64,000 nucleotides of DNA from Verrucomicrobiia bacterium (GTDB lineage Bacteria; Verrucomicrobiota; Verrucomicrobiia; Limisphaerales; UBA11358), in NCBI GenBank assembly GCA_031290985.1, contig JARLJW010000086.1:845-64844 (forward strand). The letters are read 5' to 3'. This document shows, piece after piece, positions 6,888 through 36,555 of the stretch. Each line of letters starts with the position of its first letter. Position 1 is the stretch's first letter. A program made the position numbers and the translations under genes. The notes below the pieces were generated by a model. That model had not been told where the DNA came from and did not search any database. It saw nothing but the letters and a program-made list of their open reading frames with translations.

Positions 6888-9431
6888 CTACGTCAAACTC
6901 CCCACCCTCCTCAGTTTCAACCCCGGCTCTCCCGCCTTCCTCGCCTCCGCCAAATCCACCTCAAACTCCGCCACCCAGTCATTGTTCTCCTCCGGATCCA
7001 CCAGCATCTGCTGCACCTTCCACGTCTTCTTGTCCTCTGACGGCACCACGTACGTATGCCGCACATTGCGCGCGTTCGGATCCAGGCAGATGTATTTATG
7101 CTCCGCGTGATACGCCTCCAGCACCGCCTCCAACCGCGCGACCGTCCACGGCTGGCCGTCGGCATCCAAGGGCGACGCCAGATGCGTTAGCGCCGTTTCC
7201 AGATCCCCGATCACCAGCCCGCGCAAAAAGGCAAAAATCTTGTTCCTGATCGCCGCCGTGAAACCCTTTGTATCGCGCGTGATGTCGTTTTCCTCCGCTC
7301 CGGCCGGCCGGACTTCCTTGGTCTCGACGCGTTGATAATTCGGGTCGCGCATCTTCTCCCATTCATCCAGCAGACTGGAATCGATCTGCCGGATCATCGC
7401 GCCGAGGTAGATTTCCATCTCGCGCACGGTGTCGTTCTTCGCCGCATCCGGCACGCCTTGGGACAGCACCTTGAACACGCGGTTCAGATACCGCAGCAAC
7501 ACGCCTTCCGCCCGTTGCAATTCATAATCCCGGATGTAATCCGCAAACGACCGGAATGACTCGAACATCTCGCGCGCGATGGATTTGGGCCGGATGTTTT
7601 CCTCGCCCACCCACGGGTGAGTCGCGGCAAAGTTATTGAACGTGGAATACACAAACTCCCGGTTCGGCTTCGGGTACTCGCACTTCTCCAGTTCCTCCAT
7701 CCGCTCGTCGTATTCTTTTCCGGCCATCTTCATCTCCGCCATCTTCTGGTCCTTCACGCGGTCGAGCTGCTTGCGCAAGATGATGTCCGGGTCTTCCACG
7801 ATGGATTCCACCAGCGTCAGCAGCACCAGCGCATAATCCGGCGCCTGCGGATCCATCAACGGCAGCGTGTCATGCAGGTACAGCGACAGCGCCTGGTCCA
7901 TCGAAAAATCATCCTGCAACGCCACATTCACCCGCAGATACGACCCGTCCGCCGCCTTGGGGATGAATTCAATGATCTTCCGGTCGATCAACGAACGGAA
8001 CAACTGCCACGCGCGCTTCACATGCGCCACCTTCTGGCGCGGCGTCTCGTGACAATCATGGATCAACGTCTGCATCGCCTTGCAGCCGTCGCCATGCCGG
8101 CTCAGCACATTCAGCAACATCCCGTGCGAAACTTGAAACCGCGACACCAGCCGTTCCGGCGACGCCGCGATGAGCCGCAGGTAGGTGTTCTTGTCCCAGT
8201 TCACGAAATTCTTTTCCGGCGGCTGGCGCTTCACCGTCTTCTTGCCATCGCGCGCCGTCTTTTCCGCGAGCTTGAGATTTTCGATCACATGCTCCGGTGC
8301 CTGCGCCACCACCCAGCCTTGATCGTCAAAACCTTTCCGCCCCGCCCGCCCGCTGATCTGGTGAAAATCCCGCGCCGACAAAATGACCGTCTTCTGCCCG
8401 TCAAATTTGCACAGGCGTGTGAACAGCACCGTGCGGATGGGCACATTCACGCCCACGCCGAGCGTATCCGTGCCGCAGATGACTTTTAACAATCCCTTCT
8501 GCGCGAGCTGTTCCACCAGCACCCGGTACTTCGGCAGCAATCCCGCGTGATGCAGGCCGATGCCGTGCCGCAGCCACTTCTTGATCTCCGGTCCGTACGG
8601 GCTGCTGAACTTGAAATTTTCAATGGCATTGCCGATGGCCGCCTTCTCCTCACGCGTGCAGACGTTGATGCTGGTAAAATCCTGCGCGCTCTGCGCCGCC
8701 TCCAGTTGCGTGAAGTGGACCACATACACCGGCGCGCGTTTGTCCGCCACCAGGCTCTCCAATGTCTTCGCCAGCGGCAGCTCGGAATACTCATGCTTTA
8801 GCGGCACCGGCCGGTCGGTGGAAGCCACCGTCACCGTCGGCCGCCCCGTCAACCGCGTAAGCTCCGTTTCAAAAAACGCCGTGTCCCCCATCGTGGCGGA
8901 CATCAACAGAAACCGCGTCTGCGGCAAGGTGAGCAACGGGGTCTGCCACGCCACCCCGCGCTCGCGGTCCGCGTAATAATGAAATTCGTCCATCACCACA
9001 TCGCGTACGTTGGCCGACGCCCCCTCGCGCAACGCGATGTTCGCCAAAATTTCCGCCGTGCAGCACAAGATCGGCGCGCTCTGGTTCACCGAAGCGTCCC
9101 CGGTGCTCAGCCCCACGTTGTCCGGGCCGAATTCCCGGCACAGCGCCATGAACTTCTCATTCACCAGCGCCTTGATCGGGCAGGTGTAAATCGACCGCCG
9201 TCCCTGTGCGATGGCCTGGAAATGCAGCGCCGTCGCCACCAGCGATTTCCCGGAACCGGTCGGCGTGTTCAGGATGACATTCTTGTCATCGAACACCTCC
9301 AAGATCGCCGCTTCCTGCGCCGGATACAGCGTCAGCCGCCGCGCCTCGACATATTGCAGAAAGCGCCCGAGCAAAACATCGCTGGTGGGACGTTCCTCGC
9401 GCGGAAGCAGATCATAAAGATTCGTGGCCAC
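6888..9431 (-). CDS. Ski2-like DEAD/DEAH-box helicase (DUF3516 type)
   Basis: [29 protein letters not shown]. Confidence 0.93.
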
Positions 9432-9618
9432 AATAAATTAAAAACCCGCGGCTAAAAAATTGAATTCAAATTCACACCGCAGATTGGAAACGCCCCGCCC
9501 CCTTTGAGCAACCAAATTCCTGCAATAATCCCCCCATTTATTCGTGAAAACTTCGCTGGATAACCAAAACGATTGCCCAACCGCCCGAAATCGCCCCGCC
9601 CTTTCCCTTCTCTTGGGG

Positions 9619-9929
9619 CTTATCCTTACCCACATCTTTCCGGCGGCCATATCAAGTTGCGGCTCTGGGGCTTCCCCCGCATCCGCGAGGAAGCGTGCCT
9701 TAAAATAGAATAACGCGCCCGGGCGGGTGGAAGCTGAAGCGGCGTAAACGCCGCGCCCCAGCCAAAGGAGCGCGACCTTGAGGTCGCTTCAATGCCCAAA
9801 CCGACGCGGGCAGGATCATGGTTGAGCGCGCACATCTTGGCGGGCAGCATTTGCAAGTAATTCCCATATAAAAATTTAGGCGATGGGCTTGGCTTAAAAA
9901 TCTCGGTGGAAAATGTGGGTAAGGATAAG
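9619..9929. mobile_element. 311-bp miniature inverted-repeat element, IS4/IS50-like
   Basis: 19-bp ends CTTATCCTTACCCACAT(C/T)T (18/19 identical); flanking 9-bp direct repeat CTCTTGGGG at 9610-9618 and 9930-9938. Confidence 0.85.
9736..9790. repeat. Inverted doublet of GGAG-type REP-like hairpins inside the miniature element
   Basis: gaagcggcgtaaacgccgcgcccc and ggagcgcgaccttgaggtcgcttc, with compensatory stem changes. Confidence 0.7.
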
Positions 9930-10011
9930 CTCTTGGGGGGAGCAGTAAATCCATCTATGACTATTGATATTACTGCGAAGCTCGGCCGCGGACTTCATCC
10001 AGACCAGCCCG

Positions 10012-10569
10012 TTATTGGCCCGGTCCGGCGCCGATCATCTCCGTGCGATATTTTGGGAGAAGCCCCAAGATTTTTGCCATTAAAGCGGCCTGAGTTGCCT
10101 CATCCGTTGCGGGCGCGGGTGCCGTCCGCGTGGCCACTGGAACCCCGACCGCGAGAAAAAGTTCTTCCTGTCCTGCGGGCGCGCAGATGCAAAGCAACCG
10201 TGCCGGTTGCTGGGAAGCGTTGGTAAAGCAATGTGGCGCGTTCGCCGGGATGCTGATCGTCTGCCCGGCACGCACGGTCGATTTTTTGCCGCGAAAAGTG
10301 GCTTCGATCTCGCCTTCGAGGACGGTAAACGATTCCTCGAAGTCGTGGCGATGCGGCGGCGGGCCGCCGCCCGGCGGAACGTGCATGTCAATGAGGCAAT
10401 AACGACCGTTGGTATCCCCGCCGCTGAGCAAAATGGTATAGGTATCTCCCGCGATGCCAAGGTGGCAAAGGCCGGGGCCGTGGTCGGGGTCCGCGACGGT
10501 GAGATTGCGGAGGAGGTTGTCTGCCGGAACCGGCGTAATGGACTGCGCAGTGATGGAATTGGGATTCAT
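10012..10569 (-). CDS. Cupin domain protein
   Basis: GPPPHRHDFEESFTVLEG...IPANAPHCF. Confidence 0.9.
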   Translation of the reverse strand: MNPNSITAQSITPVPADNLLRNLTVADPDHGPGLCHLGIAGDTYTILLSGGDTNGRYCLIDMHVPPGGGPPPHRHDFEESFTVLEGEIEATFRGKKSTVRAGQTISIPANAPHCFTNASQQPARLLCICAPAGQEELFLAVGVPVATRTAPAPATDEATQAALMAKILGLLPKYRTEMIGAGPGQ

Positions 10570-10606
10570 GACATTGATTTTATGGGACTGTTCCCGGATG
10601 GATGGT

Positions 10607-11245
10607 TTAACCGGCAATGACCGGAGCCTGTCGCTGATAATGTTTGTCCGCCAGTTCCCGGAGGCAAAAGGCGGCGACGTCCGGGCGGCTGATGGTGCCG
10701 ACGTGTATCCCGGCCAGCTCTGTGAAGGCTTTGACGGCTGGTACCCCTTTGGCGGAGCCGTTGGTCAGGATCGCCGGACGCACCAGTGTCCAGTCAAGCC
10801 CGCTGGCACGCACGATCTCTTCCTGGCGGGTTTTGTCATGGTAAACTACCCGCAGCATCAATGGCTGGAACAGCCAGTTATAATACCAGGGCCCATGGCC
10901 CTTGCTCTCGCCCGCGCCGATGCCGGTGAGGCAAATTAAACGGCTGACCCCCTGGGCCTTCATGGCGGCAACCAGATTGCGCGTGCCTTCCGAGAGCAGG
11001 GTTATCTCCTTGAAGGGACCCGAGGCCGCCGAACCCAGGGAGCAAATCACGGCTGCCTGACCCGACAACGCTTTTTCCAGGGAACTGGCGTCAAGGACGT
11101 TGCCCGGCGCTAATTTAACGGCGGCCGGAAAAGCGGCCTTGGACGCATTCCGCACCAGGGCGGTGACGACATGCCCCTGGGCCAACGCCTGGCTGACGAT
11201 TTCCCTGCCGGTGGGTCCGGTGGCACCGATGACGAGCAGATTCAT
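10607..11245 (-). CDS. NAD(P)-binding oxidoreductase (atypical SDR, flavin-reductase-like)
   Basis: IGATGPTG, DWTLVRP, ISRPDVA; start trimmed to MNLLVIG. Confidence 0.9.
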   Translation of the reverse strand: MNLLVIGATGPTGREIVSQALAQGHVVTALVRNASKAAFPAAVKLAPGNVLDASSLEKALSGQAAVICSLGSAASGPFKEITLLSEGTRNLVAAMKAQGVSRLICLTGIGAGESKGHGPWYYNWLFQPLMLRVVYHDKTRQEEIVRASGLDWTLVRPAILTNGSAKGVPAVKAFTELAGIHVGTISRPDVAAFCLRELADKHYQRQAPVIAG

Positions 11246-36456: not shown

Positions 36457-36555
36457 CCTCACCCCGGCCCTCTCCCCCAGGGAGAGGGAGAAATGGTTGC
36501 CGCGTCCTGGCGAAAAGGTGGCGTCTTGGTTCATGGGTTCCATGGGTTCCATGGG
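36457..36555. repeat. CCCTCTCCC/GGGAGAGGG hairpin plus a 9-bp GGTTCCATG tandem
   Basis: ccctcaccccggccctctccccagggagaggga; ggttcatgggttccatgggttccatggg. Confidence 0.65.

What the first reader, a model, noticed from the sequence alone, without database searches (positions are those of the whole stretch)
9610..9938. Miniature element with Tn5-like 19-bp ends, perfect 9-bp target duplication and REP cargo
Seen: ends CTTATCCTTACCCACATCT and CTTATCCTTACCCACATTT (inverted), flanked by CTCTTGGGG on both sides, and enclosing an inverted REP-like doublet. Known: IS50/Tn5 uses 19-bp ends and 9-bp duplications. The left end matches the Tn5 mosaic end CTGTCTCTTATACACATCT at 13/19 positions. Inference: a non-autonomous IS4/IS50-group element that carries REP hairpins, giving REPs a DDE-transposase route of spread, and pointing to a natural Tn5-like transposase with a different end specificity.
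Basis: partly seen in the sequence, partly recalled or inferred. Interest (0 to 1): 0.65.

Follow-up and report, generated by a model that had tools for sequence, protein, structure and literature searches.

The report
Tn5-type miniature transposon carrying REP pair
This 311-base stretch is a small, gene-less jumping element that uses the ends of a Tn5-like insertion sequence found intact in related bacteria. It is a real but fairly ordinary example of a known kind of selfish DNA, and it does not explain how the genome's REP repeats spread.

Summary
Window 9619-9929 is a 311-bp element with 19-bp terminal inverted repeats (18/19) and a perfect 9-bp direct repeat, CTCTTGGGG, on both sides. It encloses an inverted REP doublet.

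It is a non-autonomous MITE of a Tn5-like insertion sequence (IS4 family, IS50 type).
- The same end sequence bounds 1.5-kb elements in a same-order genome and in many metagenome contigs.
- Their 475-aa transposase has the three Tn5 domains and aligns end to end with Tn5 transposase (E 2.7e-42).
- Its stop codon lies inside the repeat.
- The ends meet all 7 conserved positions of the published IS50-subgroup consensus.

The draft genome (about 94% complete) holds two full copies that are 95% identical, one decayed half copy, and no matching transposase. Two same-genus genomes hold decayed remnants.

This IS group inserts mostly at the tips of short hairpins, REP hairpins included, and makes 8-10-bp duplications.

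The claim that the element gives REPs a transposase route of spread is not supported. About 47 REP units lie outside it, REPs occur across the order without these ends, and the genome has Y1 (RAYT-like) genes.

Verdict: a new member of a known kind, of modest interest.

The parts
9610..9618 (.). Left copy of the 9-bp target-site duplication, CTCTTGGGG
   Evidence: D13. It is identical to 9930-9938 and abuts the left end.
9619..9637 (+). Left terminal inverted repeat, CTTATCCTTACCCACATCT. Pairing with the right end continues, with one mismatch, to about 9641.
   Evidence: It meets 7/7 conserved positions of the IS50-subgroup end consensus (PMC2266710) and matches the Tn5 mosaic end at 13/19.
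9619..9929 (.). The whole MITE: 311 bp, non-coding, non-autonomous.
   Evidence: A second full copy lies at G000:C78:2022-2334 (95% identical: 13 substitutions and 2 indels). A half copy lies at C35:59356-59565. The 84-aa ORF at 9700-9954 has no Pfam hit. The only trace of transposase coding is the terminal K-C-G-stop. There is no Rfam hit.
9736..9759 (+). REP unit, plus orientation: GAAGCG-GCGTAAACGC-CGCGCCCC
   Evidence: The core GCGTAAACGC is the commonest of about 47 REP units in the genome. The same hairpin is the insertion target of a full-length IS in metagenome locus L090.
9767..9790 (-). REP unit, inverted orientation: GGAGCGCG-ACCTTGAGGT-CGCTTC. With 9736-9759 it forms a REPIN-like doublet.
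   Evidence: I2: 25-nt arms, 76% complementary, 7-nt spacer. BLAST of this part hits the same genomic REP loci in reverse orientation.
9911..9929 (-). Right terminal inverted repeat (reverse complement CTTATCCTTACCCACATTT). On the + strand it holds TGT GGG TAA, the last codons and stop of the parent transposase.
   Evidence: In full-length relatives the transposase ends ...CG* inside this repeat (L035; L047 and L046).
9930..9938 (.). Right copy of the 9-bp target-site duplication, CTCTTGGGG
   Evidence: D13.
6888..9431 (-). Flanking gene: DEAD-box/DUF3516 helicase. The element lies 187 bp upstream of its start codon.
10012..10617 (-). Flanking gene: cupin-domain protein. The element lies 82 bp (73 bp counting the right-hand target duplication) downstream of its stop codon.

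Best explanation
Window 9619-9929 is a miniature inverted-repeat transposable element (MITE) derived from, or borrowing the ends of, a Tn5-like insertion sequence of the IS4 family, IS50 type.

Inferred mechanism, taken from the established Tn5/IS50 pathway:
- A dimeric transposase supplied in trans binds the two roughly 19-23-bp ends.
- It excises the element by cut-and-paste through hairpin intermediates.
- It joins the two 3' ends to target strands 9 bp apart.
- Gap repair then produces the CTCTTGGGG duplication.

The element has no coding capacity. Its interior carries one inverted pair of the host's own REP repeats as a passenger.

No cognate transposase is present in the assembled genome. 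The copies are therefore probably stranded relics, 5% diverged from each other, of a past invasion. Same-genus genomes still hold decayed remnants of such ISs, and a same-order genome holds an intact one.

This IS group as a whole inserts preferentially at the apex of short hairpin-forming palindromes, REP hairpins included. It duplicates the loop plus 2-3 closing base pairs.
For: Shown directly:
- TIRs and the perfect 9-bp duplication.
- A second full copy at another locus, with different flanks (CCCCCGGGG / CCCCCAAGG, 7/9). Removing it plus one duplication restores exactly the 21-nt hairpin TCCTCTCCCCCGGGGAGAGGA, which has about 67 intact relatives in the genome.
- The same 17-mer end bounds elements in Nitrospirae, anammox Planctomycetes, Chloroflexota and Pirellula MAGs. 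Several are short, with perfect and different 9-bp duplications: L039 ttagaaaag, L040 gctagagag.
- In L035 the end adjoins an ORF fragment that matches Dimer_Tnp_Tn5 (E 2e-23) and NF033590.
- A same-order genome has a 1489-bp element (L047) with these ends. Its 475-aa ORF holds Tnp_DNA_bind, DDE_Tnp_1 and Dimer_Tnp_Tn5, scores 302 bits on NF033590, and aligns over residues 11-471 to Tn5 transposase 1MUH (E 2.7e-42) with the DDE and YREK residues conserved.
- At least 120 metagenome contigs carry the end. They include many 1.5-kb pairs and many pairs of 116-435 bp.
- The end meets the published IS50-subgroup consensus, and the 9-bp duplication fits the 8-9-bp range (PMC2266710).

Target preference: 14 of 24 elements that carry a duplication have at least 7/8 complementary pairs centred on the duplication, against 0.6% of control positions.

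Inferred: the chemistry of transposition and the supply of the transposase in trans.
Against: - No transposase of this type is in the assembly. PF02281 gives 0 matches, and tblastn with four relatives' transposases gives nothing at E <= 0.01. Mobilisation in this genome is therefore not demonstrated.
- Only 2 full copies and 1 partial copy exist, which is low for a MITE.
- No empty site could be shown at the orthologous locus.
- The window copy's own target is only a weak palindrome (4/8 pairs), so hairpin targeting is not evident at this particular site.
- The closest full-length ISs found differ from the MITE ends at 1-2 of 17 positions (CTTGTCC / CTTGTCA against CTTATCC).
Confidence: 0.92

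Rival explanations
1. One reading: the element is a vehicle that spreads REP hairpins by DDE transposition, so REP abundance in this genome owes something to it.
For: All three copies, including the 75%-identical old half copy, carry the same REP doublet. The doublet has therefore travelled with the element at least twice.
Against: - About 47 strict REP units exist, and only 3 loci lie within this element.
- Among 60 relatives, 22 have the REP part and none has the ends.
- The genome has 10 Y1_Tnp matches, 4 of them full length, which is the canonical class of REP mobiliser.
- MITEs with these ends in other genomes carry unrelated interiors.
Confidence: 0.05
2. The 311-bp unit is not itself mobile. 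The mobile or duplicated unit would be a larger palindromic repeat whose arms are the CCTCTCC...GGAGAGG hairpin halves, and the 'duplication' would be just the palindromic centre of that repeat.
For: The flanks of the C78 and C35 copies share more than 40 bp (GCCCTCACC.GTTTCCTCTCCCC.GGGG). The window's left flank looks faintly similar.
Against: - In the window the 9-mer is a direct repeat and not an inverted one. CTCTTGGGG is not self-complementary.
- Intact 21-nt hairpins without the insert are common, and excising the C78 copy restores that length exactly.
- Copies in other phyla have unrelated flanks, with perfect 9-bp duplications that start exactly at CTTATCC/CTCATCC.
- The window's reconstructed empty site has no BLAST relatives in the genome.
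Confidence: 0.03
3. It is a structured non-coding RNA gene, or a regulatory hairpin, whose terminal stem only mimics transposon ends.
For: The strand folds better than shuffles (z = -4.4). It sits in a 5' intergenic region.
Against: - No Rfam family matches at E <= 1.
- No promoter-like or terminator-like site was found.
- The fold is explained by the TIRs and the REP doublet.
- The ends are identical to those of transposase-encoding elements.
Confidence: 0.01

Closest known systems
IS50 / Tn5 (IS4 family, IS50 subgroup)
   Same: - 19-bp ends starting CT, matching the Tn5 mosaic end at 13/19 positions and meeting 7/7 positions of the subgroup consensus.
- A 9-bp duplication.
- A partner transposase of about 475 aa with the same three domains and the DDE/YREK residues. 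It aligns full length to Tn5 transposase.
- The transposase stop codon lies inside the end repeat, as at the IS50 inside end (the last point is from my own knowledge).
   Different: - The window element has no transposase.
- The end sequence differs at 6 of 19 positions.
- The clade prefers hairpin tips as targets, and many members make 10-bp duplications.
- It was found in Verrucomicrobiota, Planctomycetota, Nitrospirota and Chloroflexota rather than Proteobacteria.
ISRm22 of Sinorhizobium meliloti (IS4 family, IS4Sa subgroup) and other REP-targeting ISs (IS1397, ISKpn1, IS621, ISPpu9/10; Tobes & Pareja 2006, PMC1525189)
   Same: Insertion sequences whose copies sit in REP elements. ISRm22 shows that an IS4-family member can do this.
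   Different: ISRm22 belongs to a different subgroup, with CA ends. The others belong to the IS3 and IS110 families. Here the IS is IS50-type, and the window holds only its miniature derivative.
Prokaryotic MITEs that share ends with a Tn5-related or IS4-family IS, and MIC231 cassettes of IS231
   Same: Short transposase-less units with the parent's TIRs and duplication length, moved in trans. Haloquadratum (PMC3119063) has a Tn5-related IS (ISHwa2). Its MITEs share only the terminal bases with their transposons and are sometimes found without a functional transposase in the genome.
   Different: A different host phylum and different end sequence. The passenger here is a REP doublet, not a gene as in MICs.
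REPINs (REP doublets forming hairpins) mobilised by RAYTs
   Same: The interior doublet has the REPIN layout: two inverted REPs with a short spacer. The genome encodes Y1-type proteins.
   Different: REPINs have no TIRs of the transposon type and make no target duplication. The unit studied here has both, so its movement is not RAYT-type.

Membership tests
MITE (non-autonomous derivative of an insertion sequence) | Terminal inverted repeats | tested here: met
   19 bp, 18/19 matching. The chance expectation is 0.03.
MITE (non-autonomous derivative of an insertion sequence) | Target-site duplication of the parent's length | tested here: met
   A perfect 9-bp duplication in the window. The C78 copy has 7/9.
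MITE (non-autonomous derivative of an insertion sequence) | Small size and no transposase coding capacity | tested here: met
   311 bp. The internal ORF has no Pfam hit. tblastn with the transposases finds only the terminal KCG*.
MITE (non-autonomous derivative of an insertion sequence) | Several copies at unrelated loci | tested here: met
   2 full copies and 1 partial copy on three contigs. The copy number is low.
MITE (non-autonomous derivative of an insertion sequence) | Ends shared with an autonomous IS that can supply the transposase | tested here: met
   This is met in related genomes and metagenomes (L047, L161, L165 and others). It is not met within the genome itself.
IS4 family, IS50 subgroup (ends) | End consensus CW------Y---CA-A--W- and direct repeats of 8-9 bp (De Palmenaer et al. 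2008, Table 1) | tested here: met
   CTTATCCTTACCCACATCTT fits at positions 1, 2, 9, 13, 14, 16 and 19. The duplication is 9 bp.
IS4 family, IS50 subgroup (partner transposase) | DDE catalytic triad with YREK motif; Tn5-type N-terminal DNA-binding domain and C-terminal dimerisation domain | tested here: met
   For L047: Pfam PF14706, PF01609 and PF02281, and NF033590 at 302 bits against a cut-off of 160. The alignment to 1MUH shows iEDstSl, aDREsDI and YacRWiiEEyHKalK. No such gene was found in the window's genome.
IS4 family, IS50 subgroup (activity) | Transposase-dependent movement of the element | not testable with these tools
   This needs an in vivo or in vitro transposition assay, or population reads that show empty and filled sites.
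REP / REPIN (interior only) | Short imperfect palindrome that is abundant and extragenic in the genome, here as an inverted doublet | tested here: met
   About 47 strict units against 8 in the control. Doublet geometry is shown (I2). The REP part alone is found in 22 of 60 relatives.
REP / REPIN (interior only) | Cognate RAYT (a Y1 transposase flanked by REPs) | tested here: inconclusive
   The genome has 10 Y1_Tnp matches. Their flanks were not examined, so RAYT and IS200-type TnpA could not be told apart.
Mobile insertion cassette (MIC) | IS ends enclosing one or more passenger genes | tested here: not met
   There is no gene inside, only a REP doublet.

The most novel reading that the evidence does not exclude
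This widespread clade of Tn5-like transposases may choose targets by DNA shape, meaning extruded or easily bent short hairpins, rather than by base sequence. Targets as unlike as CCTCTCC..GGAGAGG, CCCAGCCC..GGGCTGGG, GCGGCG-TAAA-CGCCGC and TTCCCAA..TTGGGAA are all hit at the apex. A MITE that carries a REP doublet would then carry a landing pad for its own family, which would couple two kinds of selfish DNA.
Probability: 0.3. Interest if true: 0.55.

Novelty: new member of a known kind. Interest (0 to 1): 0.3.

Why it matters
For this genome it matters little. The element is a stranded piece of selfish DNA in the spacer upstream of a helicase gene.

Its wider value is as one more data point for a large, poorly described clade of natural Tn5 relatives.
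- Their ends are nearly invariant (…TTACCCACAT…) across at least four phyla.
- They aim at hairpin tips.

Tn5 is a workhorse of genomics (tagmentation). Natural relatives with a different end sequence and a structural target preference could therefore be of practical as well as mechanistic interest. That interest belongs to the IS clade, not to this particular copy.

Tried and rejected
- Rfam at E <= 1 over 9000-10700 found nothing relevant.
- A promoter/terminator scan found none.
- I looked for transposase coding remnants inside the MITE. Only the terminal K-C-G-stop is present.
- I looked for a cognate transposase in the genome itself.
  - PF02281 gave none.
  - tblastn gave none.
  - The two PF01609 hits, on C8 and C60, are not Tn5-type by the PF02281 and tblastn results. 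No TIR-like sequence was found on those contigs at up to 4 mismatches.
  - No further end cores lie near contig ends.
- I looked for an orthologous empty site in 40 same-genus genomes. Only the helicase coding part aligns (71-77%), and the spacer does not.
- I considered that inverted-repeat flanks around many full-length copies might be fold-back assembly artefacts. I rejected this because the inverted similarity stops after 20-60 nt and contains mismatches.
- I considered that the hairpin arms are part of the element. I rejected this; see the rival explanations.
- A literature search found no paper describing hairpin targeting by IS50-type elements. The absence of a hit in that library is not proof of novelty.

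Full report
**1. The observation**

Reading window 9400-10150 shows the features exactly as described.
- CTCTTGGGG at 9610-9618.
- CTTATCCTTACCCACATCT at 9619-9637.
- AAATGTGGGTAAGGATAAG at 9911-9929, whose reverse complement is CTTATCCTTACCCACATTT.
- CTCTTGGGG again at 9930-9938.

The repeat finder gives the same inverted pair (21 nt, 95%) and the same 9-bp direct pair. The 17-nt core occurs twice in the window. The chance expectation is 0.03 even with three mismatches allowed.

The element lies in the 580-bp spacer between a cupin gene (10012-10617, minus strand) and a DEAD/DUF3516 helicase gene (6888-9431, minus strand). The chance of 13 or more matches out of 19 is 8e-5.

**2. Copies in the genome**

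The window is C48:845-64844 of a 5.98-Mb, 59% G+C, 113-contig assembly that is about 94% complete.

A second full copy lies at C78:2022-2334. It differs by 13 substitutions and 2 single-base indels in 313 columns. Its flanks are CCCCCGGGG and CCCCCAAGG, which match at 7/9.

A third, older copy at C35:59356-59565 is 75% identical. It keeps only the REP doublet, the right half and the right end.

The C78 and C35 copies sit in the centre of a hairpin repeat, TCCTCT[CCCCCGGGG]AGAGGA. About 67 intact relatives of this hairpin are scattered through the genome. Removing the C78 insert plus one 9-mer restores the 21-nt hairpin exactly.

The window copy's reconstructed target, CCCTTCT[CTCTTGGGG]GGAGCAG, resembles that hairpin only loosely. 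It has no BLAST relatives and scores 4 of 8 symmetric pairs. Its 9-mer is a direct repeat and is not self-complementary. This rules out the idea that the 'duplication' is just the centre of a larger palindromic element.

**3. What the ends belong to**

A scan of one genome per species for CTNATCCTTACCCACRTYTTYC found seven loci, in Nitrospirae, two anammox Planctomycetes, Chloroflexota, Pirellula and an unclassified MAG. Three of these are short paired-end elements:
- L039, 435 bp, with a perfect duplication ttagaaaag.
- L040, 116 bp, with a perfect duplication gctagagag.
- L038, about 349 bp, with flanking 9-mers that match at 7/9.

In L035 the end is preceded by an ORF fragment whose last codons...K-C-G-stop, lie inside the repeat. 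That fragment matches the Tn5 dimerisation domain (PF02281, E 2e-23) and NCBIfam transpos_IS4_3.

I then searched 60 relatives for PF02281.
- The genome itself has none.
- A same-order genome has an intact 1489-bp element (L047:154-1642). It has ends CTTGTCATTACCCACAA, a 10-bp duplication in a perfect hairpin (CCCAGCCC-AGTC-GGGCTGGG) and a 475-aa ORF.
- Two same-genus genomes hold decayed copies. L046 is a 1035-bp deletion derivative. L045 keeps the last 59 codons plus the end CTTGTCCTTACCCACAT.

The L047 protein has Tnp_DNA_bind, DDE_Tnp_1 and Dimer_Tnp_Tn5. It scores 302 bits on NF033590 against a cut-off of 160. It aligns over residues 11-471 with Tn5 transposase 1MUH (E 2.7e-42), with the two Asp, the Glu and the Y-R-E-K motif conserved. 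Its NCBI label is Verrucomicrobiales, so the window's organism is probably a member of the Verrucomicrobiota.

The published table of IS4 subgroups gives for IS50 the end consensus CW------Y---CA-A--W-, a size of 1350-1550 bp and repeats of 8-9 bp (PMC2266710). The window's end fits all seven specified positions.

**4. How common the group is, and where it lands**

Pairing the ends gave 46 non-redundant elements with both flanks. Many are about 1.5 kb, and many are 116-435 bp.

Twenty-four of them have clear direct repeats: 13 of 10 bp, 8 of 9 bp and 3 of 8 bp. Nineteen of those 24 are short elements.

Their reconstructed targets are strongly palindromic around the centre of the duplication. 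Fourteen of 24 have at least 7 of 8 complementary pairs, against 0.6% of control positions from the same contigs. Ten of 24 have a perfect stem of at least 5 bp exactly centred, against 0.8%.

One full-length copy (L090) sits in AAGCG[GCGTAAACGC]CGCGC. That is the very REP hairpin carried inside the window's MITE.

REP-seeking is published for ISs of five families, including one IS4-family member, ISRm22 of the IS4Sa subgroup (PMC1525189; PMC2266710). I found no paper describing it for IS50-type elements. Earlier unchecked notes of this scan report the same kind of Tn5-like hairpin-seeking IS or MITE in at least eight other genomes, one of them with REP-doublet passengers.

**5. The REP cargo**

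The interior holds GAAGCG-GCGTAAACGC-CGCGCCCC (9736-9759), a 7-nt spacer, and the inverted unit GGAGCGCG-ACCTTGAGGT-CGCTTC (9767-9790). This is a REPIN-like doublet.

A strict pattern finds 47 such units in the genome, against 8 in a reversed-sequence control. The commonest core is the one in the MITE.

In 60 relatives the REP part alone matches in 22 genomes, and the ends match in none. The genome has 10 Y1_Tnp matches. These could be RAYTs, but I did not check their flanks.

The doublet is therefore a passenger that has been copied two or three times. The element is not a meaningful route of REP spread. I could not decide how the doublet got inside. Two possibilities are capture between two ends and a later REPIN insertion. 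It was already present in the ancestor of all three copies.

**6. Mechanism and status**

Shown:
- the anatomy of the element;
- the homology of its ends to those of Tn5-type ISs;
- the duplication;
- independent copies at different sites;
- restoration of the hairpin on excision of the C78 copy.

Inferred from established Tn5/IS50 biochemistry:
- binding of the ends by a transposase dimer supplied in trans;
- excision through hairpin intermediates;
- 9-bp staggered strand transfer followed by gap repair.

No helper is present in the assembly. A multicopy IS can be lost from a binned draft, so its absence is not proven. The 5% divergence between copies, the mutated ends and duplication of the C78 copy, and the decayed ISs in sister species all point to an old, now inactive invasion.

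**7. Limits**

No orthologous empty site could be shown.

Many full-length metagenomic copies have flanks that are inverted rather than direct repeats, over 20-60 nt. I attribute this to one of three causes:
- flanks from different REP copies joined across a collapsed multicopy IS;
- recombination between copies;
- double hits in REP doublets followed by deletion.

At least one such case (L046/L122) appears in both a genome assembly and a metagenome contig. The point therefore stays open.

**8. Verdict**

The core interpretation, a Tn5-type non-autonomous element whose cognate natural transposases exist, is supported. The REP-spreading inference is not. The finding is a new member of a known kind and is of modest interest. 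The more interesting subject is the clade's apparent preference for hairpin tips.

Noticed in passing
L088, L161, L164, L165, L137, L046/L122, L152, L136 (metagenome and relatives' loci): About half of the full-length ISs with these ends have flanks that are inverted repeats of each other for 20-60 nt instead of direct duplications. The left flank looks like the left junction of a REP(+), and the right flank looks like the right junction of a REP(-). It could be chimeric assembly across a multicopy IS, IS-IS recombination, or double hits in a REP doublet followed by deletion. It remains unexplained.
   Followed up: partly
window 9911-9929; L035:3270-3300; L047:1620-1642; L046:1680-1702: The transposase stop codon and its last two codons (Cys-Gly-stop, TGTGGGTAA) lie inside the terminal repeat. 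The core ...TTACCCACAT... is nearly invariant in elements from Verrucomicrobiota, Planctomycetota, Nitrospirota and Chloroflexota. This suggests either strong constraint or recent horizontal spread.
   Followed up: partly
G000 genome-wide, e.g. C35:59730, C3:53620, C46:133144, and window 36468-36488 (C48:37312): About 67 copies of a second hairpin repeat family, (T/C)CCTCTCC-N3-9-GGAGAGG(A/G), often embedded in a longer unit GCCCTCACC.GTTTCCTCTCC.... This family is the landing site of two of the three MITE copies.
   Followed up: partly
G000:C35:59321-59770: The decayed half copy is followed, about 150 bp further on, by a second copy of the left hairpin arm and then the right arm. The layout suggests a deletion or recombination after insertion, but I did not resolve it.
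   Followed up: no
G000:C70:25241-25576, C78:13375-13716, C46:8040-8384, C9:54150-54482 and six weaker sites: Ten Y1_Tnp (PF01797) matches, four of them full-length ORFs of about 150-175 aa. They are possible RAYTs for the REP family or IS200-type transposases. One lies on the same contig as the second MITE copy.
   Followed up: no
G000:C8:4773-6212 and C60:920-1447: These are the only two PF01609 DDE transposase genes in the assembly (open frames of 480 and 342 aa). Neither is Tn5-type, and neither contig carries the MITE's ends.
   Followed up: partly
Metagenome loci: Duplication length varies within the group. Elements with CTTGTCA-type ends mostly have 10 bp. Several with CTTATCC/CTCATCC-type ends, including the window copy, have 9 bp. 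A few have 8 bp.
   Followed up: no
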